DNA of 63,101 bases, filler included, from Welwitschia mirabilis (GCA_051453625.1; 7 parts of one record of this genome joined end to end with filler, not necessarily neighbours in it); one strand, 5' to 3'. Counted from the whole stretch's first letter, positions 1 through 46,046 are shown. The notes: generated by a model from the sequence alone, not told the origin. Translations and numbers: made by a program.

Positions 1-1873
1 TATCTTGGGTTGTATGATTATTTGAAGGAGGGTTTATACTTAGGTTTAAAGGAAGAACCTGATTGATGGTAAGGCTTTTTCTCATTATGATAAGATCCTT
101 TACAGTGATTAGGATCTAGTTGATTGGCATAGCAAATTTTTTGCCTCACTACTTCCTTTAGAATTGGTCAAAATGGGAATTCAGTGACTACATGATTTTC
201 TTTACATAATTCACAAGTAGGAGTTGGTGGGGTATGCAATTTTGCTAATTTCATCTCTAGGATTGCTTTAACCATTATCCTTATAAGTGGGTTATCATTG
301 TCACTACTTTCTTCTTCTTCATACATGTGTTGTTTTTGTTTGCCGTCTCGATGTTTAACATGATGGATTTTCCTTAAAGATTGTTTAAGAGTTTTCTTTT
401 CTCTAGGCTTAGGCCATACTTGGCTAAGTTCAACTAAGCCTTGTAAATGTTGTCATGCTTCTTTAGTTATTTCTTGAAATAAACTCCCTCCACAAGAAAG
501 ATCTATCATTTTTTTGTTGCACTCGTAAGCCATTATAGAAATGGTAAATTAATTCTTATTATTGAAATTCATCTATGGGATTGATTGAAATTAAAATTAG
601 AAATATTTCCTAAGATGAAGCATAGTCCTCATTATCTTTTTGTTGAAAATTTATTACCTCATAATGTCTTTGTCTCAAAGTGTTTCCACTTAGAAATCAT
701 TTAATAAAGCTTTTTTTGGTAGCCTTCCAAGTTTTAAGACTTTTGTGGGGTAAGGTTTTAAGCCAGTTTTTTACTTTTCCACTCAATGTATAAGGGAATA
801 CTATCATATAATTTCTATCAGTTATAGGTTTATTTCCATTACACTGAGCATCAGTTGTTTAATGGCAACAATGCATTTATAAAAATCTTCATAAATTTAT
901 CTATAGAAAGAGGGATAGGCATTAAGATTTTTAATTTCTATATCATCCCCAATAGGATGGTCAAAAGGATTATGAGTTTTTCTAATTTTTGCTCCATATT
1001 TATTCTTAAGAGTTGGTTGGGAATCACTAGAAATTGTAGACATTATGGGAGTTGTAGAATTCTAATTCATATGTTTATTATTCAAAAAAATGTAAAGTTG
1101 AAGCTTTACTTATAGAAAAATTGAAATTAAGCCTAGAAGGACTCATCATAGAAGAGGTGACTTTTGATTCGAGAAGGGACTTAAAAATTCTAGAAGATGA
1201 ATCAATAAGAAATTAAAAGCTTTCAAAATGTAAAGTGCTATCTTCTAGTAAATTAGATTGATCAAATTTAGAAATAAAAATTTGCTCACCTCTAGTCCTT
1301 GAATTATANNNNNNNNNNNNNNNNNNNNNNNNNNNNNNNNNNNNNNNNNNNNNNNNNTGAAAAGGTACCTTATTCGCTTCAGATTTTGATGGCATCCCCT
1401 TGCTTAACATGAAAATTCCAATCTTTAACTCAAAACTATTGTAGGTAATCTCCAGGTTCACATTAAAGTGCAAGGAGTAGACCCAATGATTAAGAGTGAT
1501 GTTTTTTAATGGAATATTCAGTATGTGATAATCCTTCCAGATGGCATAAAGTGCAAAAAGAGAATTGGAAAAGAAGAGTTAATTTATAATGAAAAAGGGC
1601 ACAGAACATAAACAACAAGTGAAAACAATGTGTTACCCNNNNNNNNNNNNNNNNNNNNNNNNNNNNNNNNNNNNNNNNNNNNNNNNNNNNNNNNNNNNNN
1701 NNNNNNNNNNNNNNNNNNNNNNNNNNNNNNNNNNNNNNNNNNNNNATTACACCAATAGTTATTAAATAAAAACCAAACGTAAATAGAAATAATAATAGCA
1801 TAAATTCAATCCACTTACTTTTGATTTGAATGCACTTGATAGCTTATTCTGACATTCCCCGACAATGGCATCA
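1..1873 (-). mobile_element. Decayed Athila-type Ty3/gypsy internal region (5' leader and gag remnant), running off the window start
   Basis: Minus strand ~720-800 reads VFPYTLSGKVKNWLKTLPHKSLKTWK, matching the Retrotrans_gag 'FPFSL..KAK.WL..LP..S..TW' motif, with many stops. A degenerate tRNA-Asp PBS lies at 1856-1873. Confidence 0.75.
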
Positions 1874-2957
1874 AAATGTTGGTAGCCTAAATTTTCACTT
1901 CAAAAATAATCAATGCTTGAAATAAGGAAATTGTAATTAGGCTTAGTATAGAGTGAATTAACCAATGAATGTTATAATCTGGAGAGCATAAGGCAACAAT
2001 CTTATCAAGCACATAAATGAGAAGGAATGTAACTTAAATTACAATCCAATATTTGAATTAATTTTTATGTTTTTATAATATAAAAAGTAAATTAAGAATG
2101 CAACTATTCTAATGTGCAATGCAAAGTAGGAAAATAAGATAAAATACAAGCCTATAATAATCAAATTTCTGAGTTGTTGTCTCCAAATCAGCCATTATAA
2201 CCTATGTNNNNNNNNNNNNNNNNNNNNNNNNNNNNNNNNNNNNNNNNNNNNNNNNNNNNNNNNNNNNNNNNNNNNNNNNNNNNNNNNNNNNNNNNNNNNN
2301 NNNNNNNAGAGAATAGGAAAAGAAGAGACAATTTATAATGAAAAAGGGCACACAACATAAACAACAAGTGAAAACAATGTGTTATCCTCTAAAGGTTAAT
2401 AATCTTGCTTGGATAGGGGTGGACCTTAGAGATAATCTTGTCTTTGATCAAAGGGTAAGTAGATCTCTTTATGTAATCTCCTCAGAGCAAGTAGATTGCA
2501 TTAATAGGTATTAGATTAAAACCAAAAATAAATAGAAATAATGATAGTACAAATCCAATCCACTTACTTTTGATTTGAATGCACTTGATAGCTTTATTTG
2601 ATGCTCCTCAGAAATGGCAAAAAAATGTTGGTTGCCTAAATTTGCACTTCAAAAATAATCAATGCTTGAAACAAGAAAATTGAAATTAGGCTTAGTATAG
2701 GATGAATTAACCAACGAATGTTATAATCTAGAGATTGTAAGGCAATAATTTAATCAGCACATAAATGAAAAGGAATGAAACTTAAATTTTAATACAATAT
2801 TTAAATTAATTTTTGTGTTTTTATAATGAAAAAAGGAAAATTAGCAATGCAACTATTCTAATGTGTAATGCAAAGTAGAAAGGTAAGATAAAATGCAAGC
2901 CTATGATAACTAAATCTAGGAGTTATTATCACCCAACTTAGCCCTTATGACCTATGT
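1560..2957. repeat. Diverged tandem duplication (period ~750 bp) of leader, PBS and LTR end
   Basis: 1560-2207 and 2308-2957 align, e.g. tttataatgaaaaagggcaca, ccacttacttttgatttgaatgcacttgatagc and atgttgg(t/a)gcctaaattt, with many substitutions. Confidence 0.85.
1856..1873 (-). promoter_or_regulatory. Primer-binding site (tRNA-Asp type), degenerate
   Basis: tccccgacaatggcatca versus TCCCCGGCAACGGCGCCA (3' end of plant tRNA-Asp). It is followed by aaa and the LTR terminus TGTTG at 1877. Confidence 0.7.
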
Positions 2958-3818
2958 ATAATTTATAATTGACCTAGAAAATAGTATTAATTAAACTTCA
3001 ACATAAATTATAAGAGAAATCATAAGATTTGAAGAAGATAAAAGACATTATTAAATCAATGGAATGTGTTACAATACCTCAGCAAAGTAGTGACTCATCA
3101 ATGTTAGAAACACAGCCTTCACACCAAGAACGATATCTTCTATGCTGAATTAGATCCTTGACTCCTTCAATGCTTTTTGTCACTAATCCTCCAATGCAAA
3201 AATATGACCAAATGATGCGAAATGGAGATTTTTATAGCTTTCCTAAGATGGTTATGAGTCAAAGAGATTAGTATAGGTGAAGAGGCATCATTAGGTATAA
3301 ACTAGACCTTAATTAACTCAGTTATGAAGAATTTATGGCACTATCATATTACTATCATTGTGGGCATGATAAGGGACATGACAAACTTCCATCATCCAAT
3401 CATAACTCATCATGTCAAAATCCCGTTAGTATTTGAATTCGCAAATAACGGCTATGTCGTCTTCTATGTCATGAAAACAATAGACCCCATAATAGCCACA
3501 TTAGTAAGCCACGTTAGCCTCATCAAGTTAGTCTTGCCATCTTCCTTTGAATGCAATTGTTTATGTGGTCATGCCTTATGTCATGGGGATGACAGAGGGG
3601 ATGATAGTTATTTTCTTGGTCTTTACCTCCACTTTTTTCTCCACTTTGTTTCTTAGTTGAATTCTTACCCTTCTAGATGAAAATATGGCATTTAATATAT
3701 AGTTAGATTATTAGATCAGTTCACGATAAAATGCTTGAAAATGACTAAATTAAGTTCCAGTTCCCTAAAAAACATCACCAATTATATCATTAAAGCATGA
3801 TAATTTGGGATTGCAATA
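2626..3818 (-). mobile_element. 5' LTR of the Athila-type element at 1-1873
   Basis: Starts TGTTG next to the second PBS copy. Ends taatttgggattgcaata, resembling the family end aagttggcattgcaaca (36854-36870) with CA>TA decay. Confidence 0.6.
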
Positions 3819-4049: not shown

Positions 4050-6472
4050 TGTGATTGTTTAATCCACGGTAAAACTAGTCTATTAGTTTTACCTATAAAA
4101 AGGCATCTACAGGTTTTAAATGTAAAGTAACAAAGAATCTCTGATAGGTAGAGGCATAGTATTCATTAGGCATCATTGGAAGTTGGTGACTTTTTTCTTG
4201 CATTTTCAAATGGTGATTTCACCCATAAATCTCTTGATAAAGGCTTCCTAAACTTGACTCCATGATTTTAGGCTTTTATAGGAAAGTATTTTTAACCATA
4301 GTTTAGCCTTACCTTTTAAAGTTATGAGGAATATGACTATGTAATTTCTATTACTTATGTGTTTTTAACCATTTTCAAAAGTGAGAACTAATTATTCAAT
4401 GTCCGTAATGTGTTGTAAGGGATTTTCATTGGATTCCCTAGTAAAAGCAGAATATGCATTTAGGTTTCTTAATTCAAGATCATCATTGAGAGGTAAGTCA
4501 AATGGGGTTTGGATTTTACATTTCTTATTTGCTATGAGATCTCTAAAGGTAACATGGGCATTGGTACAGACAAGAGTAGTTATAAGGGTTCCAATGACAA
4601 GGAATGGATTGGTGAGATAGGTTACTTTTATTTCTGGGATGAGGCAGACATGATTAGAAATAAAAAAATTCTCATCTAAATAATCATTTGAAAAATTTTT
4701 GTTTAGAAAAATCAGACTCCATAAAAATGAAAGTAAATATTGTAGGAATATCTAAATTTTGTGTACATTTGCTATGTTTACCTAAGTTAGTTTATAAGTC
4801 TATCAAACCATCTCGAATATTTTCTTCAATAAATAACTACTCTCTCTATTATTTTTCTTTCTTACCAAATTTTACCATACATGCTTAATAGCATATGCAT
4901 AGAGTGTTATCCCTGCAGTTAACTAAATGATAGTCTTGACAATAGAAACACAAAAACTACAAAAAAAAGAAAAAGCAAAAAACATAAATAAAACTTATAG
5001 ATGCATAAAACTTTGAAAGTAGACTATCATCAATCTAAGTCATCTAGATGATAGAGGGAACGACAAGAAAAATCCAAAAAAAAGTTTTTTAACAAAATAA
5101 AAATATAAAACTCATGACATAGAGGCTGTTACCATTGCATGTCATCTAGACCATGAAGTAGGCAACTAACTTTTTATTACAGAATAGAATGACAACTTTT
5201 ATTCGAAAATAGAAAACTGACACTCCAAAAAAGAAAGAAGCCTATGCTACTGTACATAATAGTACACTATTGTTACAGGTAAGTATCCAAACTAAAATAT
5301 GCATCAGAGCAATAAAAACTCTTAAAAACTCTATGTAGCCTTCCCCAACAACGACGCCAAGATGTTGTGATATATATTTATGTAATGTTACATCCCTAAT
5401 TAAGTCAAATCCTATAAATCATAAATATTTGCACAAACACAACATACTAATATAGATAAGAGTACCCTAAATATCATAATCTATCAAAGGCCAAGTTAGA
5501 AGTTAGGAGAGTTGGTTTTCAGAAGGAAAAATACTTATATTCTAATTACAAAAAAGAACTTGCAATGCATGAAAATAAAATGTAATACACTCATGTAAAG
5601 CTAATCTAGGAAAAGGAAAGAACAATTCACATAACCTAAACTAACCATGCACAACCTCAATAAAAGTTGCCCTTATATCCTATATTACTAAAAAACTATC
5701 ACTAAATCAAAAACAACATAAGCTATGAGGTTGAGAAACAAACATGCACTGAAATCAGAAAAGAAAATGTTTTCTATTAAATCACAAACCACATCTGTGT
5801 TACAAAGTAGTCACACCTTAAAAGAGGAAACATCACTCAACACCAAGAAAAATGTCTTTCTACAACTATAAGGGTAGATCTCTGGCCCTTTAATCTCTTT
5901 TCATGAGTATTTTAGATGCAAATGGAGATACGTAGGAGTAGAGGATGAGATCACTATTTATTAACACACAAGCACATAACAAGATAAACCGAAAGGCGTG
6001 GATAAAACCATAATGATCGGATGAGAAGAAACAAATATACATGTGGTACAAGTTAAGTGAATGTTTAGTGCAGACATTACCACAGTGTTATTCAACTGGT
6101 TATTTAGACAGTAAAAGTGATAATGCTACCTCATAATTAATCCACATTGACTGCTAGATTGATTATAGTCAGCATCCCTATTAGCAAAAATTGGTTGGTC
6201 ATCTGTATAGTCATCTAGATGATGACATGGATAATGGCCTTTTACAAATATTTAATTAATGCATCAGCCTTAATGTTTTATAAAAATGTTGTCTCAGAAA
6301 TGCAAAGTATTTAGAATTTCTCAAATTAATGTAAATCATCATGAAGATTGTATGTTTTTATTCCTTTCATCTCAATTCTCCATTACTACAGAAATCAAGA
6401 ATTTACTTATTTATTAACTTGAAAAACTACTTAAAATACCCTAGTAAATATATGTAATTTGGCAGCACAATA
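4050..6472 (-). mobile_element. Truncated Athila-type element: gag remnant, leader, tRNA-Asp PBS (5342-5359) and LTR (5363-6472)
   Basis: PBS tccccaacaacgacgcca is followed by TGTTGTGA at 5363. The LTR ends aatttggcagcacaata. A gag-like minus-strand segment (~4280-4340, F.ITFKR*G*AKLWLKILSYKSLKSW) parallels the one at ~720-800. Confidence 0.75.
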
Positions 6473-6789: not shown

Positions 6790-8824
6790 TCAAAAACATA
6801 TGGGACACATAACTTGATAAAAAGATATGCCATATAAGAGTCTACAATAGGGGTTTCTAACTATAAGTCCATAATCCACTATCTCATGCATAGTATTAAA
6901 TGATTTTGNNNNNNNNNNNNNNNNNNNNNNNNNNNNNNNNNNNNNNNNNNNNNNNNNNNNNNNNNNNNNNNNNNNNNNNNNNNNNNNNNNNNNNNNNNNN
7001 NNNNNNNNNNNNNNNNNNNNNNNNNNNNNNNNNNNNNNNNNNNNNNNNNNNNNNNNNNNNNNNNNNNNNNNNNNNNNNNNNNNNNNNNNNNNNNNNNNNN
7101 NNNNNNNNNNNNNNNNNNNNNNNNNNNNNNNNNNNNNNNNNNNNNNNNNNNNNNNNNNNNNNNNNNNNNNNNNNNNNNNNNNNNNNNNNNNNNNNNNNNN
7201 NNNNNNNNNNNNNNNNNNNNNNNNNNNNNNNNNNNNNNNNNNNNNNNNNNNNNNNNNNNNNNNNNNNNNNNNNNNNNNNNNNNNNNNNNNNNNNNNNNNN
7301 NNNNNNNNNNNNNNNNNNNNNNNNNNNNNNNNNNNAACTATAAGGCCATAATCCTCTATCTCATGCATATTATTAAATGATTTTGCTAAATTATTGTCTC
7401 ATTATTGTTGAAGAGTCTAATTTCATTTATTTTATAATATTGATTGAATAATGTTATATAAACATTTCGAATGGTTCTTTTAGACTTATGATGGAGTGAG
7501 TTAGTAATTGATGATACCATTCAAGAGCTTGTAATCTAAGAGATCAATGAAATAGATGACATAATGTGTTTCATTCTATATTATACATGTGATAAGAGTG
7601 TTTAAATTTCTTGACATGGATAATAGTATCTTCAACACTTTTAAATTTCTCAAAATAAGGCATTTCACTGGGCAAAATGATTTTGCAATGAACAGAAGAG
7701 TGAATTAGTGTATCATCAATGTCTATGTTAAGGTAATTTTTCTTGTTTTAAAGGCCTTGTTTAACATTATTAATGACCTATCAAAGCATGTTATATTCAG
7801 TTGATTAGATTTGAGGTTTATCTTCCTTAGATTATTGAGTTTCAAATGGTCCTTCATCATTTATTTCATACTCAAATAAGCTATCATCATCATAATTCAT
7901 TTTTGGGATTTGTGATCTAGATTTTTGTGATGTTTTTGGTTTTTGTTATGATTCCTTTTATTTATGAANNNNNNNNNNGGAAAAAGGATTCCTCAAAGAG
8001 AACCTTATTTTTAACATCTGATAGTACTAATTTTATAATTGCTAGTGATCATATTCTTTTAGTGCAATGGATTAAGTAATTTTTCCAATAGCTCCTATAG
8101 TCATTCAAGTAATTTTCCCAATAGCTCCTATAGTCATTCATGGAACAAAGTTAATCGAGAGTAAAAGTTGAAGGGTTTTATTAAATGAGTACCTTGTACT
8201 CATCTTCTGAAATGTAGGTTTTTTTTCCACGAGTTGACATTGGCATTATAGCTATTATTGAGTGTAATAAGATGGTAGGCAAAGGTAGAGAGTAAAATGA
8301 ATGTGATTAAAAATTGATTAAGAAAATGATAAAAGACCTACATAAGAAGGCCTCCTTCTAGCACCAAAACTATTGCTAAATTTTTTCGTAACATTAATTT
8401 ATGATTTTGGTTAATCATGGCTTTACCTAGCACCCTCCTTCTAGTGCCAAAACTGTTATGACTGTTTTACACAACATTGATGTTGATTATGATTTTGATT
8501 TTCCAAATGATGTTTGATTTTGATTTAAAAAGCAATATGTAAAAAGAATTTTTTTGGACAAAAGTTTTAAAACTAATTGAAGATGCTTTACATGATTTAT
8601 GCATAAAACAAATTGAAGATACTTCACATGAACTAATATTTGGACAAATGAAATGAAGCTAGCAAAATTTAATATTAGAACATAAGACCTAAAAATAGAT
8701 GCTTGGAGTTTAAAACTTTCAAGATCAATAGTAACACATATTAATCTTTACAGCTAAATTACTTTGAAGAACAAATAGAGATGAAAATAGAATTAATTAA
8801 GTTTTTTATAGATTATAAAATAAA
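6790..8824 (-). mobile_element. Tat/Retand-type Ty3/gypsy remnant: gag (~7340-7720), leader, tRNA-Asn PBS and partial LTR (8454-8824)
   Basis: Minus strand gives EMPYFEKFKSVEDTIIHVKKFKH and LRLQALEWYHQLLTHSIISLKE (Tat/Ogre-like gag). ccctccttctagtgcca at 8433-8449 matches the plant tRNA-Asn 3' end CCCTCCTTCTAGCGCCA, and TGTTATG follows at 8454. Confidence 0.6.
8074..8139. repeat. 33-bp tandem repeat, 2 copies
   Basis: aagtaattttYccaatagctcctatagtcattc twice, with one mismatch. Confidence 0.9.
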
Positions 8825-8924
8825 NNNNNNNNNNNNNNNNNNNNNNNNNNNNNNNNNNNNNNNNNNNNTTAATTAATTAANNNNNNNNNNNNNNNNNNNN
8901 NNNNNNNNNNNNNNNNNNNNNNNN
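8825..8924. other. Artificial scaffold-join spacer (44N-TTAATTAATTAA-44N)
   Basis: Exactly 100 bp. The same construct recurs at 17792, 37801, 45947, 52628 and 60902. Confidence 0.97.
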
Positions 8925-10249
8925 AAGCCAAGAAGCCCCAAGAACTATATCACATCCATGGAGAGGGAGTATATAGAATTCTGAAGTAAAATTAAAGCCT
9001 TCGATAGTAAGAGGAAGATTATTGCATGTACCTTGAATTCATAAACGCTCACCATTGGCTACTATGACCTCAAGAGAATTGTCATTAGTCCATCGAAAGT
9101 TGGGTTGTTTCATCAAGTTTGGATGGATGAAGTTGTGGATGCTATCAGAATCGATGAGAATAGAAACATGTTGCTTCTTAAATTCTGCCTTAACCCTCAC
9201 TGTCTTGGGGGATAGAGAACCAGTCATGGTATGCATAGAGATCTCTGGTTGCAGTTCTTCCATGGGTTCTTCTATTGCATCTAACTCTGCTTCTAATTCA
9301 TCTTTGGGCCAATATCCTTCAATAAGGAATAGTTGTTTTGTCTTAGAACGATGGCCAGGATCAAACTTCTCATCACAGTTATAACATAGCCCCTTATCTT
9401 TTCTAACCTTGGCCTCGACTAGTGTTAGTTGTTTGATTGATGTAGGTGCAAGATACTATAAGAGATAGAAGTAGTTATGGCGTGATTCACCTTATTTTGC
9501 CTATGTAGGACAATTAATTAGTCTTTCTTAAGCCTTGCTAATCTGATGGATTGAGTCATAGTTTTGGGTTGGAACATGCGGACTTTATGCTTTAACCTGT
9601 CTTTTAGCCCACTTATGAAATAACTCACAAAAAAATCTTCAGTCAGTCCTGATGTTTGATTAGCCAGTTGTTAAAAGCAGGACTGGTAGTCACGAACAAT
9701 AGAGGTTTATCGCAATTTGGTAAGTTCTCCAGTGTGGTCCTCATACATGTTTGAACCAAAGCACGTGCATAATCCTTCCACAAATTCCTTCCAGGAAACA
9801 ACACTCTGATATTTTTCTAGCCATTGGTACCATTGAAGTGCCTCCTTCTCAAGATGAAAGGAAGCCAAAAGGACCTGTTGTGATTCTAGAGTAAGCTTGA
9901 ATCTGACAAATTGTTCAGCTCGGTAAATCCAGCCATCAGGATCTTCCCCATGAAAACGTGGGAATTCCAAGTGTGTGATTTGAGGTTGAATGACACTCCT
10001 ATTTCCTGTGTTGTATTCTAGGCCTGTTTGGTGGTTATAAGCAACATGCTTATCACCCATGGCAGAAGATTCTCCAGACTGGGATGTCGAATGACCCATT
10101 TGAAGACTCAATCTAGTAATCATTGATTTCAAGTCCTCAACGGTGGTATTGGTGGTATTGTTGAATAACCTTATCTCTTGAATTTGTCTCTTATGTCCTT
10201 CTAATATAGCCTTCACCTCATCGTCCATCTTTGCCTTTTGCGTGCGCAT
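8925..10249 (-). pseudogene. Disrupted gag-protease polyprotein of the chromovirus-like element
   Basis: ORF pieces 9707-10249 and 9039-9263 are separated by stops/frameshifts. The protease D-S-G motif has become D-S-D. Confidence 0.85.
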
Positions 10250-10542
10250 CAACGAAGTCGTGACTCTGATACCAAATGTTATGATCCTAGTCGTATCAAA
10301 GCATAAAAGTTGTAAATAGATNNNNNNNNNNNNNNNATCAAGCCTCCAATAATCACTTTCAGGGTGATTGGCCTCCAAACACATAATGTCACTTTTTTCG
10401 ATGATGCCAAAGCATTACAATACCCACTTATTTATAGGATACAAGTCCTCTACAACAGAACTCCTAATCAATATAGGATTTTAAGGAAATAACATAAAAT
10501 AACAAACTATGAAGCCCTTAATAAATTCTGGGGTCAATAACA
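8925..10542 (-). mobile_element. Chromovirus-like (Reina-type) Ty3/gypsy, 5' part: short LTR, iMet PBS, gag, zinc knuckle and protease, cut by the scaffold join
   Basis: LTR 10277-10542 is bounded by TGTTAT...ATAACA. PBS actctgatacca (10263-10274) is the reverse complement of TGGTATCAGAG. Gag LEFPRFHGEDPDGWIYRAEQF...ASFHLEKEALQWYQW, knuckle KGLCYNCDEKFDPGH (~9350-9395) and protease ILIDSDSIHNFI are present. Confidence 0.9.
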
Positions 10543-11164
10543 GAAATTATAACAATAAACTATAGGAATAGATTATTCTGAGTGATGTCTTGCTCTCTCA
10601 TCCTCCGATCCTTTGCTACTCTTTGATGCCGTTGTCCGCTGGTTCTCCTCTGCAACCACTATCTCTTTTTTGTGAATGCTCTATTCTGGCTCCTCAAAGC
10701 TATTCATTTGAATGCCTTTTCTCCTGTTTGTTTTCTGTTATGATGCGCGCTTTTTGATGTGCCTCAAGATCTTCTCCGCATTACTTCCCAAAATCTGTCG
10801 CACGAGCATTGTTGGGTTTATATTTACTGACTTTAACTGATTTTAGAGTGTGTATTTATCATCAGTTGTGAAACAGTGAGTTGTGTAACCGTTTTAAGAG
10901 GGAGTGATTACTAGAGCTACTGCCACAGAATACGCAGATGCTCTCAAATCTGGATGCCAGTCTAGACGCGTGTTTGAATCCGTCTCATCTTCATTCTCAA
11001 AGAGTATGAAGATTGTAAACCCTTTGATGCTGAAAAAGGGAGTTGGGAGATGACAGAGCTATGAGCAAATTGAATTGAATTGTAAGTCAAAATGAAACGG
11101 AACCTCGCTGAATCGCTAATCCTACATAAGCTTTCTTTATATAGCAAAAAGGAAGGACACTGGT

Positions 11165-11266
11165 GCTGAAGCAACTCACATGGCGATAGCCAATGTCGCT
11201 GTAGGGATGATTTCATCCATTGTGTCACAAGTTTATTTTGTACCACTTGATGTTATTTGCCAAAAG
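11165..11266 (+). pseudogene. Fragment of a mitochondrial carrier (SLC25A44-like plant subfamily)
   Basis: Translates AEATHMAIANVAVGMISSIVSQVYFVPLDVICQK. This contains the carrier signature P-x-D-x-x-x-x-K/R and resembles the plant SLC25A44-like second repeat '..ATR.AIANGVAGM.S..VS..YFVPLDV.CQRLMVQG'. Confidence 0.65.
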
Positions 11267-11267
11267 A

Positions 11268-12187
11268 CATGGTTTTAATGTAACTACAATTAATAGTAAA
11301 AGTCGGCAAAGAAGAACTAACATTCTGGTTTGCAATTGTTCAACTAGTACTAGGTTATTGGAAGAATAAGGAAAATCCATTTAGCTTCAATGAGAGCAAT
11401 GAAAGTGGAGCCCAATAGGCAACTAATGTCCTCAATGAAGGCGATAAAGAAGACAGTCTCAACAAAGACCATAAAGAAGACGACGATGGTGATAGTGATG
11501 TTATACTAAAACCGACTCATAAGCCTTTGTTAAAGGCTCCTCCAAAGTTACAGTCTGAGCATAACCCTGTCAACAATAATGGGGTGTCAGTTTTTTGGAA
11601 ACCCAAGACAGATAACCAGAATGGCTCTCGAGCAAAAGGCTTAGATTCAGATTTGCAGGGCAGTGCTTCTTCACTAGATATGGTTATCAAAAAAGTGGGA
11701 GGGGGATTGAAAAGAAGGGTGAACAGAAGGTTTTCATTTGGTAAAAGCGTTTGAAGAAAAGGGGACCCAGTTAAACCTCCATAGAGTACACTGAGACCTA
11801 CAAAAAACGTGATTCTAAGAGATGTGAATGCTACCCCTAAAGAATTCATTTTTAGAGAAGCTAGATCCCTTGTAAGGTTTAGCACAGTTTCAGAACCAAT
11901 ATTTCAAATCCTTCGAGAGTAAGCTTAGGCTCTTTTAAGGGCAAAGATCATCAGAAAAAGCAGGGAAGTAAGGAAGGGGGCTCCAAAAGGATGGCTAGCT
12001 TGAAGAAGACATATGTTGCCGATGATGAGGATAAGCCCTTTAATATTTCAGAAATGTCAGATTCTGGCAAACTCAGATACAAAAGAGGTCGCAGAAAAGG
12101 GAGGAGGAGAGCTGTAAGGGCTGAAAGTGCCGTGGTTAAGGCTCCTACAAGGGCAGATACAATTGAGGTTGGGAAAGAGGGAATATT
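11268..12187 (+). pseudogene. cpIF2: Disabled fragment resembling the N-terminal region of nuclear-encoded chloroplast translation initiation factor 2
   Basis: Collinear motifs: VCNCSTSTRLLEE*GKSI (cf. VC.YSVTT.FIAEQGNSV), DGDSDVILKPTHKPLLK (cf. EIVLKPAPKPVLK), KSV*RKGDPV (cf. KSVWRKGD.V, TGA at 11752), KNVILRDVNATPK (cf. KPVILKDVGAAPK) and RRKGRRRAVRAESAVVKAPTRADTIEVGKEGI (cf. RKAVRLQAAKDAAPVKAEILEV.EEGM). Stops and frameshifts are present and there is no GTPase domain. Confidence 0.7.
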
Positions 12188-12387
12188 GCTACTATTAGCT
12201 AGAAGATAAAAGGACAATTGATGCAGATATGATGGTTGTTGGAATTGGAGCAAGACCTGAAAGCAGGTCTTTTGAAGAGGCTAGTTTGAAGACTTATGAT
12301 AGGGGCATAGAGGTTGATTGTCAATTCAGAACAAGTCCATCTGACATATTTGCTATTGGAGATGTTGCTGCATTCCCTCTCAAGATC
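12185..12387 (+). pseudogene. MDHAR: Internal fragment of monodehydroascorbate reductase (plastid/mitochondrial MDAR6-like)
   Basis: LEDKRTIDADMMVVGIGARPESRSFEEASLKTYDRGIEVDCQFRTSPSDIFAIGDVAAFPLKI. It carries the FAD-binding 'T....IFAIGDVAAFPLK' motif. Similarity stops abruptly after FPLKI. Confidence 0.85.
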
Positions 12388-12989
12388 GTATGGTATTTTA
12401 CATGCAGAGCATGTGTGTTGAAGGATCTATGGAGGGAGTAAGGTGCTTGAAACTTGGATGGTTTTAAGGAGCCTGAGGGGGAAAAGTCATCTCTTATCAT
12501 CTGCATATACTCTTAAGCGATGACAAATTCCTTTTAAATGACATTAGAGAGCACAATAATAATATCTTTAATTAGTGATTTGCAGAACACTAGTTATTAT
12601 GCTACTACTTCAAAACTTTCCTTGTCAATTCCTCTGTATTGGACTATATTATTGGGATTCCAAAAGGGGATTTCCCTATTTGAAATGGTGTGTTTTGGCT
12701 GACTAGACTTTATGTCTATGAAAGTAGATTTGCATGCTCATCAATTTACCAAACAAGAAAGGGATGAATCTGTGATGAAACGCTTTAGTTCATTACAATA
12801 AAGAGATTGGCAAAGCTGTTTCCAGCAATGTAGAAGACAACTGTACAAAAATTACCAACAGCTATGCTGGAAACACATAGGGACGAGTCTTCATTATAGA
12901 AAACAGGGCGAAGGTCAGGGCAAAGGCATAAACATCTTCCCTTTCCCTCTCAAATTAGAATGCCTACAGCTGTGAAACTGGAAACAAAT

Positions 12990-13070
12990 CAAACTGCAAT
13001 GAAGATAAGCCTCTTATCCTTTGTTTCATGCACGGTTTTGGTGCTCAGATAGGACATGAGAAAAAAACGA
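12990..13070 (+). pseudogene. Possible alpha/beta-hydrolase fragment
   Basis: Translates NCNEDKPLILCFMHGFGAQIGHEKKRI, resembling the oxyanion-hole motif 'P.L.L.HGFGAS..HW'. The match is short. Confidence 0.35.
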
Positions 13071-13256
13071 ATCTGCTAACATTATCCAAGAATGTTATCA
13101 ATCATGGATTTTGATTATTTAAGAAATGCTTAACTCCAATATTTAGTGTTGTCAAATAAGTGCATTTTTGCATGAGCAAACCATGATCATCAATGTCAAA
13201 TTAAGTTGTTTCTAAAATGTTATTGAAGGCCCTCTCAGACAAACGCTAAATGCATT

Positions 13257-13279
13257 AAAAAAAAAAAAAAAAAAAAAAA
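13257..13279 (+). repeat. Poly(A) tract, 23 nt
   Basis: Uninterrupted A run downstream of the gene-fragment mosaic. Confidence 0.95.
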
Positions 13280-16200
13280 CTGTAGTGGTCTTCCTNNNNN
13301 NNNNNNNNNNNNNNNNNNNNNNNNNNNNNNNNNNNNNNNNNNNNNNNNNNNNNNNNNNNNNNNNNNNNGCTGTTAGAAGAAAAGTTAGAGGCTAGGTTTT
13401 GCCTCATTGCATTGTGGTTGTATGAGAAGAGTAGTGACATCTAGATTCCATTCATTGAGCCATAGAAAATCTGGTTCCTGTTCGGTTACTGGTTCAAGAA
13501 TCTCCAGACATCAAGAGCGCATTATGCTTTTCTTTGAAGATTTTCAATATCCTGCTATTCCTAGAAAACGAAGGAAAGGCCATTCAGAAATTTCTTGATT
13601 ATCAGAAGTAAAAAAACTTTCTGTTAGCATCAATTTCCAGCAAAACATTAAGAACACTAAAGATGTACCACCATTAGCAGAATATTGCAGTCCCAGTCCC
13701 TGTTTTCATNNNNNNNNNNNNNNNTGAGTTCTAAATTCTCAATCTTTGTAAATTTCCATTGTCTAGAGTTCTTTAAATAAAAAATACTAAAATTCTTTAT
13801 AACTTTTTATGTATCTTCCACTAGATTCCTAGTTAAAATTAAATAAGAAAACAAATAAAAAAGAGAAAAGCTGATTACGTGGAAGAATGGTGGATAAAAG
13901 TTGGAACGTAAAATTCCTATATTACAATTCTCCATGCACAGTATCATCCCTATGTTAGTTCAACAATATGGTTATTTATAGATGTTTAGCGCTAGTTGCT
14001 TAACTTCCCATCATCAAACATAAGTAGATGCTTATAAGAAATCATATTGTTGAAGAAGGACATGCTGTATTGATTTCAGTTGATCATCTACATAAAGGGA
14101 TATAAGAAGAAATATCTATGTTAAACCTATTGTGCTAGCATCTAAACAGGAAACATACTTTCTCGAGAGTGATTTACATGGAATACTTTCTTCAGACTCT
14201 TAGCATTTCTTACTACTCAACAATAGGCACTAGTGTTATTATGTTAAATGCCCTTAAAGAAACCATTATGAAAGAGAACAAAAAGTAGTATAGAAACAAA
14301 AAATAGAACCAAGAATTTTGGAGAAAAGACAATTTACATAAGAAAGCATTCTAATTGAAAGGAAACCATTCAAGGAAAAGATTTCTATGGTTCTATTACT
14401 ATACAGTGTAAACATCATGCACTCCATGGTTGGATTTCTAAAATAGAAGTCATGGGAATAGGAAGATATAGCTAATCTTTTGCTTAGTAAGTAGATCTAA
14501 ATTGCATCTAACCTTGACAAAATTTTAAAAGTGCAAAGCTTTATTCACTGTGTATTTCTAGCCAAGGAAACACAAATAAATGATACCATTCATATTAAGA
14601 TACAAGTTGTCAAACTCAGACTATTGGGATTTAGCTGAGAATTATTATGTAGAGATGGATCAGCATCACCTTTGATTGCATTGACAACCATGAGAAGGTG
14701 CTTATCTAAGAGCCACTTGTAAAATGTGGATACATCTATGTTAAGGGGTTTAAGGTTACCTGGTATTACGGTTCCCTTTGAGAGAGTTATTCTTTAGATT
14801 AATATGATATCCACTAAATGCCTATTTAGAAGAATTATACCCATAAGATGTTGAGTATTGGCAAATCTATGTGTAGATTATTTTAGTCTAATTGTAGGGG
14901 CTCTATTCTGAAATATTACTGCTACTCAAAAGGCCTTTCACATTTTCTATTATGGTTGATTTGAAAGCATTAAGTGCCACACTAATCATTGCTTGCTTCG
15001 AAAATTATGCTTAACTAAAACCTAGAACACACAAAGTTGTTCTAATGTAAAAGGCCATTAAAAGAATCAAGCTAAAAAAGTAAGAAGAATAGCCTTGGAA
15101 TTCATAATCGAAGAGCAACAGATGTAGAGAAGCATTTTTTTTTTTTTGGGCAAAATAAATGGGGTTGTCATAGTGGTGCCATCAAATCATTTAACAAAAA
15201 CATTCATTCTTGTTCCTCATTAAGATGAAATAGAACAATACCATTGCTTGGCAATAGTTAGAAATAAAGCAATAAGGAATTTTGTAAAGGGAGTTCATTA
15301 TCCATTTGAAACTGAGGAGAAAGAGTATAAGTCATTACTATCTATGAGACTCTATTTTATACAATCTCTTAGATGGGCCCTATACCTGTAATTGAAATTC
15401 TAAAGATGCAGTTTAGTTTTGTTGATTTACCAAATACTAAAATTGCATTTTTCTAAATCTCCAAATTTGCATACATATTTATAAGAGCACTAAAAGGATT
15501 GGATTAAAGCCCACTTTTAAGTGCTACTACATGTAACCTTCTCCCCAGTTTGATGGAATTAAAATATATTTTTTTTTGAGTAGGCTTGAAAGAGTCAAAT
15601 TTATAGAAAAAAGCTAGATATTTCACAAATATGATCCAGTCGATGAATGATAAGACAAGAAGAATGAAATAAACTTCATGACAGAGATCTCCATGACATT
15701 CTCCCACACTTCCTATGCTCATCTGATTCTTCATAAATGTAACAATTATGCCTTATAATCCAAGATTACATCATGGATTCGATCTCCTCAAGCATCATCT
15801 TCCCTTGTTTGGCTTCTTTCATTAACAAGAACGTTAGGATTTAGAAAACAATAATCCTAAGTGATCTTCAACGATTTCAACTAGGCATCAAAGTAGGGTT
15901 TCAAATGAATAGAAAGCAGTGACAAAAAATTCCTACTTGACAAGCATAGCTGCTCCACCATATTTTAGATAAGGAAATGGAAACACCAAGATACTCTATT
16001 AATTACAGTCAAATCCGACCTCTGCAATTTAATACTTAGTTTTAGAAACGATTAATCACATAGCTCCCTACACAAGCCGTGCTAAAACTCTCCAATGCTT
16101 GCAAGGTTAGGGTTTCATTTATGATAATCTAAGCCCTATGAAAGAGAGAGGGAGCCAAGATTTTTAGGTAATCTATACAAATCAAATTACAAANNNNNNN

Positions 16201-17791
16201 NNNNNNNNNNNNNNNNNNNNNNNNNNNNNNNNNNNNNNNNNNNNNNNNNNNNNNNNNNNNNNNNNNNNNNNNNNNNNNNNNNNNNNNNNNNNNNNNNNNN
16301 NNNNNNNNNNNNNNNNNNNNNNNNNNNNNNNNNNNNNNNNNNNNNNNNNNNNNNNNNNNNNNNNNNNNNNNNNNNNNNNNNNNNNNNNNNNNNNNNNNNN
16401 NNNNNNNNNNNNNNNNNNNNNNNNNNNNNNNNNNNNNNNNNNNNNNNNNNNNNNNNNNNNNNNNNNNNNNNNNNNNNNNNNNNNNNNNNNNNNNNNNNNN
16501 NNNNNNNNNNNNNNNNNNNNNNNNNNNNNNNNNNNNNNNNNNNNNNNNNNNNNNNNNNNNNNNNNNNNNNNNNNNNNNNNNNNNNNNNNNNNNNNNNNNN
16601 NNNNNNNNNNNNNNNNNNNNNNNNNNNNNNNNNNNNNNNNNNNNNNNNNNNNNNNNNNNNNNNNNNNNNNNNNNNNNNNNNNNNNNNNNNNNNNNNNNNN
16701 NNNNNNNNNNNNNNNNNNNNNNNNNNNNNNNNNNNNNNNNNNNNNNNNNNNNNNNNNNNNNNNNNNNNNNNNNNNNNNNNNNNNNNNNNNNNNNNNNNNN
16801 NNNNNNNNNNNNNNNNNNNNNNNNNNNNNNNNNNNNNNNNNNNNNNNNNNNNNNNNNNNNNNNNNNNNNNNNNNNNNNNNNNNNNNNNNNNNNNNNNNNN
16901 NNNNNNNNNNNNNNNNNNNNNNNNNNNNNNAGGTTAGGGTTTCATTTATGATAATCTAAGCCTTATGAAAGAGAGAGGGAGCCAAGATTTTTAGTTAATC
17001 TATACAAATCAAATTACAAATATTTAATAACAATCGAGAAATACTCCCAAAAAACCTACATGGTCTGCTTGCAAAAATATAGGGCAAAGGAGAGATACAA
17101 TGACTGTTGTGTAGGCATTAATTCCATGAGGGATGCATGGACTACTGGTTCTGTCATCAACTTATATGCTTGCTTTGCTGAGTGTTCATGTTGTGGGAGA
17201 GGCAACTGGAATATATGGTATTCTCTCTTAAGATGATCCTTTTGTTTATATGATGATACATTTGTATCCATGATAGTGCTTGAGAAACATACTAAAAAGG
17301 ATAGCCTGAATGTTTATCTAAGGTTATTAAATAAGTGAAAACACTTTCTTAAATTGATTTGGTATTGACTTCTTTCTATCCTCTAGCATATGATTCTAAT
17401 TCTCTCTGTAGACCTTTGCTTAAAGTAGATTGGTTGCAAGGGATCTTGGATGAATCATAGAGTATAAGACAGAGGACAGTGACATACTTATTAGAGTTTA
17501 TACTAATTCTCCTTAACTATATGGTATCTAGTGTAATCTTGGAATTTGGTACTAAGGTAAACAAAAATGCTACTTGAGTATTGAAAGTTTTGTATTCTTA
17601 ACTATGTGTTTCATTTTTGCTAAATTAATTATAGATCTTAAATCAATGTTTCCATAATTAATGAATGGGATAAAAGCATTAAATGTTATCAATTTTTTGT
17701 GGGACATCTTATTTTACTTATAGTAATTTGATTGTAACCTATAAAACTTCACTTGTAATGATTTCTCAATTTATCTTTGAAATCAAATCCT

Positions 17792-17891
17792 NNNNNNNNN
17801 NNNNNNNNNNNNNNNNNNNNNNNNNNNNNNNNNNNTTAATTAATTAANNNNNNNNNNNNNNNNNNNNNNNNNNNNNNNNNNNNNNNNNNNN
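17792..17891. other. Artificial scaffold-join spacer
   Basis: 44N-TTAATTAATTAA-44N. Confidence 0.97.
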
Positions 17892-37800: not shown

Positions 37801-37900
37801 NNNNNNNNNNNNNNNNNNNNNNNNNNNNNNNNNNNNNNNNNNNNTTAATTAATTAANNNNNNNNNNNNNNNNNNNNNNNNNNNNNNNNNNNNNNNNNNNN
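37801..37900. other. Artificial scaffold-join spacer
   Basis: 44N-TTAATTAATTAA-44N. Confidence 0.97.
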
Positions 37901-42350: not shown

Positions 42351-45300
42351 ATTTGGTAAGTTATCAAGTAATCACTCTTAAAATATTAACTTCACATTAT
42401 GATATTCTATTATCTAAGATAATATATAGATCATAAATCAGTAAATTATGTACATATTACTTGACATTTTTAATATAATGATCTAATCATGATGTTAGCT
42501 ATAGAAAATTTTAAAGTTCCTCATTTTTTAGAAAATATGTCTTTAAGTAGAAGACATCTATTGTGGAGATGTCTTTACTTTGTAAATGTTTGTTCAATAG
42601 ATGTATCTATATGTTAGACATCTTTAAAGGCCAGACATAATTTTTTATTTTTTTAAACAAATGCCTTTGAAAATGTAAACATCTTTACAGCTGATGGATG
42701 GTTACATGGTGAAATAAGTGCAGAAAATATGATAAAATAATATTAAAAAATATAAAATAATACAAGAAAAATGTAGAAACTATGTTGTTATTAACCTAAA
42801 AAAAGCTCACACCATTAAACAAAAAATAACTAAATGCTTACTGAAGAACTAGTTGAGATTCAACCATTTAGTTCAAAATGCATCGTTACAATAGTCTCAT
42901 GATGAAGTTACTTGAGCTAGTTAGGTTGGTTTGTTATTACTAAGTTACTACCTATGTATATTATACTAGGATGAGCAAAGAAAGTAATGAAACATAATAA
43001 AAATTAAATGAGTTGATAGACAATACTTATTTCTAAGTACTATTAATTATTTTGATTTATGTTTAGCTATGCAAATAAGAGAAAATACAAATAATATTAC
43101 TTTTTAAATAATAGAGCATACATACAATGATGTTCAAATATTCTTTTTATCTTTATATTGAAATACAAATTGTTATATAAATATCTGGTAAGGCTTGTGT
43201 TTTCCTTTGTAGGTAATACTTTAGAGAATGGAAAATGTTACTATAACCTTTTTAGGATAACTAAAGCTTCCTTCCTTGACCTTCTTTCTTAGTTTATTCC
43301 TTGAATGTTTTATCAAAATGATCCCCACCTTTGGTTGTTTATTTTTCTATTTCCATTCTTTACTCCTTAGAAATATGTATATGATTTGAGTTGTTATTAG
43401 TTTTTCACCACCTCAACCTTCTCTCTCAACTTTATGGCACATGGCATCCTATACCTAAAATGAAATAATAAAATATACATACTAATTTAATACCATAGTA
43501 ACTAACTAATATATTTATACTAATAAAGAAAAATCTATTGTTATTTCAAATGCATAATTAAGATAATGAAAATACTTCATTAACAAGTAAGACTTACATT
43601 AAAATTTATCCTCATTAAAGCATGTAGGTAACTCATCAAATTTATTGTTAAAAAACTTATATAATAAAGATAGATGTCTACTTTCATGGTTTTAGATGTC
43701 TTTCAAGTAGTAGACATCTTTCATGAACTATATCAAAAAATAAAATGCACATCAAAATAAGGTTTTTAGCCCTTTGTATTTAGAAAATAGGCCAACTTCT
43801 ATCATTTTCAATCCTCTAGTCAGTGGCTATCCATGTAAGAGTTTTCTTTAGCATGATTTTTCTTAGATCTCTTATCATAGACATATTTAGAAAGAAGTGT
43901 TTAAAACTAGTACAATAGATGCTCTTTTTTCCCCTTTTTCTTGGACATAAAACTCTTAGGTTCTAAAAACATAAGAAATATCAAATTTTATTTATTTCTC
44001 ATGTCTTGATTAAAACATGATAGGCTAATTAGAGTAGAGTATTCTAGAACCAATTGTCAGGGAATTCTATGCCAATATTCATGCTATAGACGATAGCACT
44101 GAGACTTTAGAAACTTAAGTACAAGATATTCATTGATCTTTTACCTATAATTTTGTCAATTCTATGCTTGGTATAGATGATCAAGAAATTCTAAAATTAT
44201 ATGTAGATTATTTTAAAGATATTTTTACATGTTTCTATATTAAAATTTTATAACATTCATTGAGAAATGTTCTTTTTGGGCATTTAAGGATGAATTTTAG
44301 AATTTAGAATGATAAGATATGGTATTTAATGCATCTATTTTAAGTTTAATTACCATTTATAATATAATTATTAAAGGAGGTAGTTATAGCTATTGCAATT
44401 CAATGTAGACTTTTATGGTCTATTTCCTTCTCATAGGGATAAAGACTCATCCTAGAGTTATTTTATGTGTAGATATCATTGCACTTTTTTCCAAAGACTG
44501 GAGTTTGGATTACCATTGCTTAATTAGTCTAATTAATAGAAATGCCAGCATCTTGGTGTCATAGGTTAATCTCATTCATCTTAAAAAGTCACTTTTAGAG
44601 TTTAATGAGAAGAACTAAGTACCATTATTAGTAGGTAGAGACATAAGTAGATGATCTTCTAATGTATATGTTTGGTGATCTTACTCTACATATACTCATA
44701 GTTCATTCTTAGTGAAGAAGGTTCTTAAATAAATTATAAAGATGATAAGAAATATTAGAATAAATCTCTTGATGTTGAAGAATCAGTGGTAGATAACTAG
44801 TGTGGAAGAGGCTCATATAGGTAGTTGGAAATCCATGTGGACTTTCACTTGATCTAATTCAGAGGAGGAATAAGAGGAATAGAACCCTTTAAAACCTCTT
44901 ACTATAGGATATGACTTAGATTATGTATCAAATTCAAATTTGTTAGATTCCACAAAATATGAGGCATAGGCATAAGAAAAGCAACAAGCTCCATCACAAG
45001 AACAGGAGGAGCACAAGGCTTTAACATAGGTATAGTAAGAGAAATAAGATTTGAAATAGGCACAGGAGGAGTAATAGGTGGACTCCAAGAGCTCTAATGA
45101 TTCGTCGCTCATCTTTCATAGGCCTTATTACAAATTACCCATTCGCCATTCTACACAGACTTCATCATCACCTTATCCCCTATCTCTACCTCACCTTTCA
45201 TCTCCATCATCACCTCTCACAATTCTCGTTCATGCTTCACCTCTTAGCACTACTTCACCCTTAGCTTATAGTTTTGCTGAGATAACTACTATTAGCTTCT

Positions 45301-45946: not shown

Positions 45947-46046
45947 NNNNNNNNNNNNNNNNNNNNNNNNNNNNNNNNNNNNNNNNNNNNTTAATTAATT
46001 AANNNNNNNNNNNNNNNNNNNNNNNNNNNNNNNNNNNNNNNNNNNN
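45947..46046. other. Artificial scaffold-join spacer
   Basis: 44N-TTAATTAATTAA-44N. Confidence 0.97.

What the first reader, a model, noticed from the sequence alone, without database searches (positions are those of the whole stretch)
10543..13710. Island of same-strand fragments from several unrelated nuclear genes, fused into a mosaic inside a TE graveyard
Seen: within ~2 kb on the + strand there are abutting, disabled pieces that translate to a mitochondrial carrier repeat (11165-11266), the cpIF2 N-terminus (11268-12187), an MDHAR FAD-binding segment (12185-12387) and an HGFG hydrolase-like motif (~13000-13070), then A23. Established: Pack-MULEs, Helitrons, CACTAs and template-switching retroelements capture and shuffle gene fragments, often co-oriented. 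Inference: this is a gene-capture/exon-shuffling cassette. I cannot find TIRs, Helitron ends or enclosing LTRs, so the vehicle is unidentified. The three best-identified donors all encode organelle-targeted proteins.
Basis: partly seen in the sequence, partly recalled or inferred. Interest (0 to 1): 0.85.

Follow-up and report, generated by a model that had tools for sequence, protein, structure and literature searches.

The report
Dead fusion of two plant gene fragments
A plant genome stretch carries broken pieces of two chloroplast-related genes joined head to tail, a decayed chimeric pseudogene of a kind common in plant genomes and probably made by reverse transcription.

Summary
Window 11259-12191 (+) is residues 36-376 of an IF2-type translation initiation factor (E 8.6e-41). 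Window 12199-12387 (+) is residues 328-390 of a chloroplast/mitochondrial-type MDHAR (E 2.6e-22; Pfam 3e-14). They abut within 7 bases.

The junction is not an assembly artefact. Contigs of an independent study span it, and a second genomic copy about 15-17% diverged has the same junction in two organism labels.

The carrier and hydrolase pieces found no support in any search I ran. The A23 run exists, but I cannot tie it to the mosaic.

The IF2 piece has 4 stops, 2 frameshifts and a 27-codon deletion. Only 2 of 1497 laid RNA reads are 99% or more alike.

The MDHAR piece starts mid-exon. It runs into the next exon with no intron, judged from Citrus isoforms.

My best reading (0.5) is a chimeric retro-pseudogene made by reverse-transcriptase template switching and later duplicated, like maize Bs1. 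I found no TIRs, Helitron end, LTR pair or target-site duplication, so the vehicle stays unidentified.

This is an ordinary kind of object and of low interest.

The parts
8925..10281 (-). Internal part of a high-copy Ty3/gypsy LTR retrotransposon (left neighbour, not part of the mosaic). It carries a primer-binding site at 10264-10274, then gag and aspartic protease.
   Evidence: Retrotrans_gag 1.7e-10, Ty3_capsid 9e-8 and RVP_2 7e-7. The 11-base PBS motif (recalled, complementary to initiator tRNA-Met) occurs once in the window against 0.01 expected. Summed contig depth is 800-3000 against 5-15 for the mosaic.
10282..10511 (-). The 3' 230 bp of that element's 5' LTR, with a TATA-like box near 10430-10437. 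It is cut off inside U3 at about 10509-10511.
   Evidence: Other copies of the family continue with different sequence beyond 10511 (loose ends in X1, X3, X6 and 72 RNA reads). Depth falls from thousands to about 10 after this point. The sequence was read.
10512..11258 (.). Segment A: GC-rich DNA of unknown origin. 10840-11207 is present in about 3-6 copies.
   Evidence: No Pfam family in six frames. Searches for the carrier were negative. Exact contigs of X1 (10572-11074) and X6 (10605-11074) match.
11259..12191 (+). Fragment of an IF2-type (chloroplast-type by length and architecture; inference) translation initiation factor gene, residues 36-376 of 977. It is disabled by 4 in-frame stops, 2 frameshifts and a 27-codon deletion at 11796/11804.
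   Evidence: One search gives parent contigs 11259-11804 with 62 and 59 differences in 546 bases, the parent mRNA loose ends at 11796, 11804 and 12191, and continuous parent RNA depth of 21-66.
12192..12198 (+). Junction zone between the IF2 and MDHAR pieces. Its 7 bases cannot be assigned to either donor.
   Evidence: The end of IF2 mRNA similarity is at 12191. MDHAR protein similarity starts at 12199.
12199..12386 (+). Fragment of a chloroplast/mitochondrial-type MDHAR gene (FAD/NAD-binding domain), residues 328-390 of 522. The frame is open and 52 of 63 residues are identical.
   Evidence: Parent mRNA reads leave at 12386 (58 reads).
12387..12455 (+). Two decayed, tandem-like copies of the first bases of the next MDHAR exon (from 12388 and from 12428), directly behind the previous exon with no intron.
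   Evidence: The 30-base continuation of the parent mRNA aligns to 12428-12451 with a score reached at 3 of 1725 random window places. A first copy at 12388-12421 was read by eye. The exon border after the FPLK residues is inferred from Citrus isoforms.
12456..13257 (+). Segment D: a non-coding member of a moderately repeated (about 6-13 contigs), weakly transcribed family.
   Evidence: No Pfam family in six frames and no PDB hit. There is no other copy in the window.
13258..13280 (+). A23 run, 15 bases before an assembly gap. Whether it belongs to the mosaic is not shown.
   Evidence: No target-site duplication was found with the 15 bases that follow. Copy number and RNA reads of similar level continue at 13416-13783.
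14555..14793 (-). Fragment of an XRN-type 5'-3' exoribonuclease N-terminus with one frameshift.
   Evidence: Pfam XRN_N gives 24.2 bits against a cut-off of 22.9, E 2.6e-5, on 14546-14647. It was first seen at E 5.3e-4.

Best explanation
The core of the finding (11259 to about 12455, + strand) is a dead chimeric retro-pseudogene. An internal stretch of IF2 mRNA (codons 36-376) is joined to an internal stretch of chloroplast/mitochondrial MDHAR mRNA (codons about 326-400).

The most likely mechanism is reverse transcription with template switching. A retroelement's reverse transcriptase copied one RNA, jumped to the MDHAR mRNA, then to the IF2 mRNA, and possibly onward into what is now segment A. 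The product was integrated and later copied at least once as a unit. It has since decayed without selection and is not measurably transcribed.

In plants the LTR-retrotransposon route is the usual one, as for maize Bs1 and the 'LTR-mediated retroposition' of PMC5131818. On this reading the flanking low-copy segments A and D would be remnants of the carrier element.

Shown: the identity and limits of the two pieces, the junction, the second copy, the disablement, and the near absence of locus-specific RNA in one run. Inferred: the RNA origin, the template-switch mechanism and the nature of A and D.
For: (1) Both pieces are internal, partial and co-oriented, and abut within 7 bases with no filler. 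PMC5131818 lists these as features of template-switch retrocopies: partial mRNAs and several parental genes (passages read).

(2) The MDHAR 5' break lies 17 codons inside an exon, by the borders that Citrus isoforms reveal. Splicing or intron-mediated recombination therefore did not make the joint.

(3) The exon border after the FPLK residues is crossed without an intron. The start of the next exon follows directly, in two decayed copies (score reached at 3 of 1725 random places).

(4) The IF2 piece is collinear with parent mRNA over its whole length apart from one deletion, whose two loose ends overlap by about 9 bases.

(5) A second copy, 14-17% diverged, carries the same IF2/MDHAR junction in X1 and X3. 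This matches Bs1, whose copies all share the switch points (PMC5131818).

(6) The flanks A (3-6 copies) and D (6-13 contigs) are low-copy repeats, and D is weakly transcribed. That is expected of a carrier element.

(7) No TIR, Helitron terminus or CACTA-like inverted repeat was found.
Against: (1) No LTR pair, PBS/PPT of a + strand element or target-site duplication was found. Assembly gaps at 13296-13368 and 13710-13724 and the scaffold end limit this test.

(2) The only identifiable retrotransposon next to the mosaic is on the opposite strand and is cut inside its LTR. It is not the carrier in any simple way.

(3) The intron argument rests on an exon border inferred from Citrus protein isoforms, not from the host gene, and on short decayed matches.

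(4) For at least 546 bp of the IF2 piece the parent gene itself has no intron (parent genomic contigs align without a break). That piece therefore cannot separate RNA capture from DNA capture.

(5) The second copy stops aligning to the window at 12384 and runs on for 482 unlike letters. D may therefore not belong to the original unit.

(6) The A23 run cannot be used as a retro-tail, because the repeat family and RNA reads continue beyond it.

(7) A gene fragment on the other strand (XRN) lies 1.3 kb away. That would fit DNA-level patchworks better if it belongs to the same unit.
Confidence: 0.5

Rival explanations
1. DNA-level capture by a non-autonomous DNA transposon (Helitron, Pack-MULE or CACTA). 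A and D, or sequence further out, would be the element's terminal regions, and the gene pieces were picked up from genomic DNA.
For: Flanks A and D have a higher copy number than the IF2 insert, as in TE families with conserved ends and variable cargo. The unit exists in at least 2 copies. A further gene fragment in the other orientation lies nearby. The IF2 piece lies in a part of the parent gene that has no intron, so it is uninformative.
Against: No inverted repeats flank the block; the best pairs are 14-25 nt at 72-88%, which is chance level. The only hairpin-plus-CTAGT match lies inside the MDHAR coding piece. The MDHAR piece shows no intron at the border inferred from Citrus.
Confidence: 0.17
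2. A double-strand-break repair patch, made of filler DNA copied by synthesis-dependent strand annealing or end joining. A break in the gypsy LTR was repaired by copying stretches from several unlinked templates, either cDNA or an already existing mosaic elsewhere.
For: The gypsy LTR ends abruptly inside U3 at 10511, not at a natural terminus, exactly where the foreign low-copy DNA begins. No TE hallmarks surround the block. The joints are base-precise with at most a few ambiguous bases. That plant break repair can insert filler DNA from unlinked sources is recalled knowledge; one search gave only listings.
Against: The block is at least 2.8 kb, which is long for filler DNA. The rest of the interrupted LTR was not found to the right: 0 matches at up to 3 mismatches in the window, although gaps could hide it. 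A second copy with the same junction means that the IF2/MDHAR joint at least predates this event or arose elsewhere.
Confidence: 0.18
3. LINE-type (L1-like) chimeric retrocopy. Reverse transcription was primed on the A23 tail of a D-family RNA, then jumped to MDHAR mRNA and IF2 mRNA.
For: The block is co-oriented and ends in A23. Contig counts rise towards the 3' side: 2-3 at 11489-11585, 6-7 at 12279 and 12-13 at 12453, as with 5'-truncated LINE-driven copies. LINE chimeras join parts directly in the same orientation (PMC2104539, passages).
Against: No target-site duplication was found. Similar copy number and RNA reads continue past the A-run, so it is internal to a repeat. In LINE chimeras the 5' part is typically a full-length RNA copy (PMC2104539), whereas here both gene pieces are internal. 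D shows no LINE protein remnant.
Confidence: 0.1
4. Assembly chimera: the joints are artefacts of a short-read draft assembly.
For: The window is a gapped draft. N makes up 10.5% of it and scaffold linkers are present. The whole mosaic lies in one 2959-bp contig between gaps.
Against: X6 contigs from another study cover 11129-11490 (1 difference) and 12041-12358 (0 differences), across both joints. A diverged second copy with the IF2/MDHAR joint is seen in X1 and X3. One of the runs may be the assembly's own source.
Confidence: 0.02

Closest known systems
Bs1 of maize and 'LTR-mediated retroposition' chimeras (Elrouby and Bureau 2001, 2010, known to me only as cited in PMC5131818; Tan et al. 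2016, PMC5131818, passages read)
   Same: Partial exonic pieces of unlinked cellular genes are joined in one orientation. [quoted passage not shown] The setting is retrotransposon-rich.
   Different: Bs1 and the metazoan cases are framed by recognisable LTR-retrotransposon sequence in the same orientation. Here no such frame was found, and the only adjacent LTR element is antisense and truncated. Bs1 encodes a hybrid ORF, whereas this locus is riddled with stops.
LINE-mediated bipartite and tripartite chimeric retrogenes (Gogvadze et al. 2007, PMC2104539, passages read)
   Same: Different transcripts are fused directly in the same transcriptional orientation, and an A-run lies downstream.
   Different: Those have a full-length 5' RNA, a 5'-truncated LINE or SINE at the 3' end, and 10-20 bp direct repeats. 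Here both pieces are internal, no LINE part was identified, and no direct repeats were found.
Pack-MULEs, gene-carrying Helitrons and CACTA elements (established knowledge, recalled; PMC8277862 seen as a search listing only)
   Same: They are mosaics of fragments of several host genes, multiplied in the genome and usually non-functional.
   Different: The defining termini (TIRs with 9-bp duplications; 5'-TC and 3' hairpin-CTRR; CACTA ends) were searched for and not found. The MDHAR piece appears intron-free.
Retrocopies of plants with L1-like hallmarks (Zhu et al. 2016, PMC4838847, passages read)
   Same: They are RNA-derived copies of nuclear genes. The paper notes that some lack every hallmark, through decay or an unknown mechanism.
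   Different: Those are single-gene copies. Here two genes are fused, and the A-run is not adjacent to a gene piece.

Membership tests
Chimeric retrocopy (template-switch retro-pseudogene) | The pieces derive from different parental genes and are significantly similar to them | tested here: met
   IF2 E 8.6e-41. MDHAR E 2.6e-22. The host's own parent contigs and mRNA reads align at about 89%.
Chimeric retrocopy (template-switch retro-pseudogene) | Parental introns are absent | tested here: inconclusive
   MDHAR: the next exon follows directly, but the border is known only from Citrus isoforms. IF2: the parent has no intron over at least 546 bp of the piece. The host's gene models were not available.
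Chimeric retrocopy (template-switch retro-pseudogene) | The pieces are joined directly in the same orientation | tested here: met
   Both are on the + strand, with 7 unassigned bases between 12191 and 12199.
LTR-mediated retroposition (Bs1-like) | The retrocopy is framed by LTR-retrotransposon sequence of the same orientation, with both LTRs | tested here: not met
   No LTR pair was found between 10500-11300 and 13281-17791. The adjacent gypsy is on the minus strand. Gaps and the scaffold end limit the test.
LTR-mediated retroposition (Bs1-like) | [quoted passage not shown] | tested here: met
   X1 record 4 and X3 record 11 cover 12161-12384/12369 across the joint, with the IF2 part upstream at the right distance.
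LINE (L1-like) retrocopy | A poly-A tail directly at the 3' end, plus a target-site duplication | tested here: not met
   A23 lies about 800 bp behind the last gene piece. No duplication was found with the 15 bases available after it. Repeat depth and RNA reads continue beyond it.
Pack-MULE / CACTA (TIR elements) | Terminal inverted repeats flank the captured block | tested here: not met
   The 19 inverted pairs in 8500-15500 are all short (14-28 nt, apart from one artefact of 53 nt made of runs of N) and 71-93% complementary, and none frames the block.
Helitron | A 3' hairpin followed by CTRR, a 5' TC, and insertion between A and T | tested here: not met
   My scan of 8925-17791 found 2 hairpin-CTRRT sites. 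One lies inside the MDHAR coding piece (12252-12284) and the other at 17123-17148; neither is at a boundary.
Mitochondrial carrier family (piece 11165-11266) | A significant match to the Mito_carr repeat or to a carrier protein | tested here: not met
   12.4 bits against a cut-off of 22.3. There were no hits.
Alpha/beta hydrolase (piece about 13000-13070) | A significant match to a hydrolase family or structure | tested here: not met
   No Pfam family and no PDB hit at E<=10.

The most novel reading that the evidence does not exclude
Segments A and D are the two arms of a so far undescribed low-copy, non-autonomous retroelement lineage of this plant. By this reading it has taken up host mRNA pieces step by step, MDHAR first and IF2 later, as suggested by 12-13, 6-7 and 2-3 contigs over D, MDHAR and IF2. 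It would then have kept retroposing with its cargo, making it a Bs1-like exon shuffler outside the grasses that could be followed across the two organism labels holding it.
Probability: 0.25. Interest if true: 0.45.

Novelty: new member of a known kind. Interest (0 to 1): 0.22.

Why it matters
Mosaics of gene fragments are a known by-product of retroelement and transposon activity and of break repair in plant genomes. Occasionally they become raw material for new genes.

This one is dead and apparently silent, so its value is mainly practical. It would mislead gene prediction, and it would mislead read mapping for the IF2 and MDHAR genes, because parent RNA reads map onto it at 80-95% likeness.

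It is a modest case study of a chimeric pseudogene that spread after it was formed. If the carrier element could be defined from long-read assemblies, the locus would add a non-grass example to the short list of plant retroelement-borne multi-gene chimeras.

Tried and rejected
(1) Whole-genome search: no genome is held for this window. Parental loci and other copies could only be seen through public-run contigs.

(2) Earlier findings of the scan: nothing by place, sequence or words.

(3) Carrier piece: the word-index search, phmmer against 1.84 billion representatives with the read-through frame 10898-11263, the PDB and the ESM Atlas (best score 0.82, unrelated fungal families) were all negative. 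I recall a resemblance to a plant carrier subfamily. It could not be tested and is not used.

(4) Hydrolase: Pfam and PDB were negative. I considered an 86-base intron-like spacer that would join two hydrolase-like stretches, and dropped the idea for lack of any support.

(5) D as the 3' UTR of the MDHAR mRNA: rejected. Parent RNA depth falls from about 35-40 on the exon to 2-7 on D.

(6) The mosaic as cargo inside the U3 of the adjacent gypsy LTR: the expected continuation of the LTR was not found in the window, and the orientation is opposite.

(7) D plus A23 plus the downstream sequence as internal region, polypurine tract and 3' LTR of a + strand LTR element. This is attractive because RNA reads stop near 13784 and TG follows the A-run. 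No 5' partner was found, so it is kept only as part of the novel reading.

(8) Rfam and tRNA scans around the block found nothing relevant.

(9) RNA: no RNA holder was listed in the run index. One raw RNA run was laid.

(11) Other GC islands of the window (3306-3656, 4392-4751, 44701-45902, 50101-51182) show no protein family. 53039-54184 is gypsy-type RT/RNase H. The rest of the window was not scanned for gene fragments.

Full report
SETTING. The window is a gapped draft of a plant nuclear genome. It is 29.5% GC without N, and 10.5% of it is N. Pairs of 44-N runs separated by a 12-base all-frame stop linker (8825-8924, 17792-17891 and others) show that separate scaffolds were strung together. 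The finding lies in one 2959-bp contig, 10337-13295, of the scaffold piece 8925-17791. No whole genome is held for the window, and earlier notes of the scan hold nothing on it.

WHAT IS REALLY THERE: THE IF2 PIECE. Two gene pieces are beyond doubt. The ORF 11883-12209 matches a 977-residue protein with the IF2 domain set (P0001) at E 8.6e-41 and 81% identity. tblastn places P0001 residues 67-375 on 11353-12191 in two frames, with a further stretch back to about residue 36.

Contigs and reads of public runs of the same organism sharpen the limits. Genomic contigs of the parent gene (X1 record 3, X3 record 10) align to 11259-11804 with 62 and 59 differences in 546 bases, and not upstream. Of the parent mRNA reads, 110 leave the window at 12191 and continue as the IF2 coding sequence does. 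Loose ends at 11796 and 11804 mark a 27-codon deletion whose two ends overlap by about 9 bases.

The piece carries 4 in-frame stops and 2 frameshifts.

WHAT IS REALLY THERE: THE MDHAR PIECE. The second piece, 12199-12387, matches residues 328-390 of a 522-residue MDHAR (P0002), with 52 of 63 residues identical. Pfam Pyr_redox_2 gives 3e-14. The PDB gives MDHAR structures at 1.5e-9. The best named relatives are 'chloroplastic/mitochondrial' MDHARs. Parent mRNA reads leave at 12386 (58 reads).

WHAT IS NOT SUPPORTED. The 'mitochondrial carrier' ORF scores 12.4 bits against a Pfam cut-off of 22.3. It finds nothing in the word-index search, in phmmer against 1.84 billion representatives, in the PDB or in the ESM Atlas. 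Its last codons are in fact IF2-derived bases.

The 'HGFG hydrolase' has no Pfam family in any frame and no PDB hit at E<=10.

Segment A (10512-11258) and segment D (about 12456-13257) have no detectable protein similarity.

The A23 run is present at 13258-13280.

IS IT AN ARTEFACT? No. X6, from another study, has contigs 11129-11490 (1 difference) and 12041-12358 (0 differences) that span both joints. A second genomic copy is seen in X1 (record 4) and in X3, a different organism label (record 11). It aligns to 11331-11792 (79-80 differences) and to 12161-12384/12369 (28-32 differences), so it crosses the IF2/MDHAR joint. The fusion is therefore real, predates a duplication, and is old: about 11% from the parent and 14-17% between copies.

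EXPRESSION. In the one RNA run laid (X17), 1497 reads lay on the stretch. Only 2 were 99% or more alike; 841 were 90-95% alike and 610 were below 90%. Nearly all of the RNA signal comes from the parent genes and from other repeat copies.

SURROUNDINGS: LEFT SIDE. To the left lies a high-copy Ty3/gypsy element on the minus strand. It has gag and protease and a primer-binding site at 10264-10274 (the motif is recalled). Its LTR has a TATA-like box. The LTR is cut inside U3 at about 10511, where other family members continue with different sequence and depth falls from thousands to about 10. The continuation of the LTR does not reappear in the window.

SURROUNDINGS: RIGHT SIDE. To the right, D and the sequence beyond the A-run belong to moderately repeated DNA. 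Between 6 and 13 contigs show shared variants at 12453-13460. RNA reads are weak and stop near 13784. The A-run therefore looks internal to a repeat, not like the tail of the mosaic. The 15 bases after it have no direct repeat upstream.

A third genuine gene fragment, the N-terminus of an XRN-type exoribonuclease, lies at 14555-14793 on the minus strand (XRN_N 24.2 bits against a cut-off of 22.9).

VEHICLE. I found no TIRs, no other copy in the window and no LTR pair. No Helitron end was found either; the single hairpin-CTAGT match sits inside the MDHAR coding piece.

MECHANISM. Three observations point to an RNA intermediate.
- Alternative isoforms of Citrus MDHAR reveal exon borders before GASIKNLEAG and right after FPLK. 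The window's MDHAR piece starts 17 codons inside that exon, so the joint was not made by splicing.
- Directly behind the FPLK codons the window carries the beginning of the next exon, not an intron. It does so twice, as a decayed tandem duplication from 12388 and from 12428. The parent mRNA continuation aligns to 12428-12451 with a score reached at only 3 of 1725 random places.
- The pieces are partial, co-oriented and directly abutted, and the copies share the joint. PMC5131818 lists these features for template-switch retroposition by LTR elements and for maize Bs1 (passages).

Against this, the exon border comes from another genus. The IF2 piece lies where the parent has no intron over at least 546 bp. 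No retroelement frame was found. The second copy diverges from the window after 12384.

I therefore give the template-switch retro-pseudogene 0.5, a break-repair patch at the truncated LTR 0.18, DNA-transposon capture 0.17, a LINE-type chimera primed at the A-run 0.10 and assembly error 0.02.

COMPARISON AND NOVELTY. The object works like Bs1 and other LTR-mediated chimeras, but fails their membership test on the framing LTR sequences. It resembles LINE chimeras (PMC2104539) in direct same-sense fusion only. It fails the defining terminal features of Pack-MULE, CACTA and Helitron elements. PMC4838847 notes plant retrocopies without any hallmark, which is where this one currently sits.

It is a new member of a known kind. 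The 'organelle-targeted donors' pattern rests on two genes and carries no weight. Supplementary files of the papers were not available and were not needed for these points.

VERDICT. This is a real but ordinary chimeric pseudogene with two proven donors, duplicated, dead and silent. The vehicle is unresolved. Interest is 0.22.

Noticed in passing
window 14555-14793 (-): Fragment of an XRN-type 5'-3' exoribonuclease N-terminus with one frameshift, reaching back to what looks like a mutated start codon. It lies in moderately repeated DNA 1.3 kb beyond the A-run.
   Followed up: partly
window 16104-16193 and 16931-17020: The contig ends on both sides of the 737-N gap are 97.8% identical over 90 bp. 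The gap is probably an unmerged overlap, or it hides a tandem repeat.
   Followed up: no
window 8825-8924, 17792-17891, 37801-37900, 45947-46046, 52628-52727, 60902-61001: Pairs of 44-N runs around a 12-base linker (read at 8869-8880, inferred elsewhere from identical spacing) mark artificial joins between scaffolds. Neighbourhood across them is not biological.
   Followed up: partly
window 12385-12460: A roughly 40-base tandem-like duplication of the first bases of an MDHAR exon. Both copies are decayed.
   Followed up: partly
window 12252-12284: A perfect 8-bp hairpin with a 4-base loop, followed 9 bases later by CTAGT, which mimics a Helitron 3' end. It lies inside the MDHAR coding piece, so it is a chance look-alike.
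   Followed up: yes
window 53039-54184 (-): Open reverse-transcriptase and RNase H domains of an LTR retrotransposon (RVT_1 1.7e-15, RT_RNaseH 2.3e-29).
   Followed up: no
window 17090-17182 (+): A weak RING-finger match (zf-RING_2, E 7.5e-4, below cut-off) in a read-through frame. It was not recovered when the short stretch was scanned alone.
   Followed up: partly
window 11083-11146: A 64-base stretch in segment A begins GTAAGT and ends TATATAG, like a short intron, just upstream of the carrier-like ORF. No supporting homology was found.
   Followed up: no
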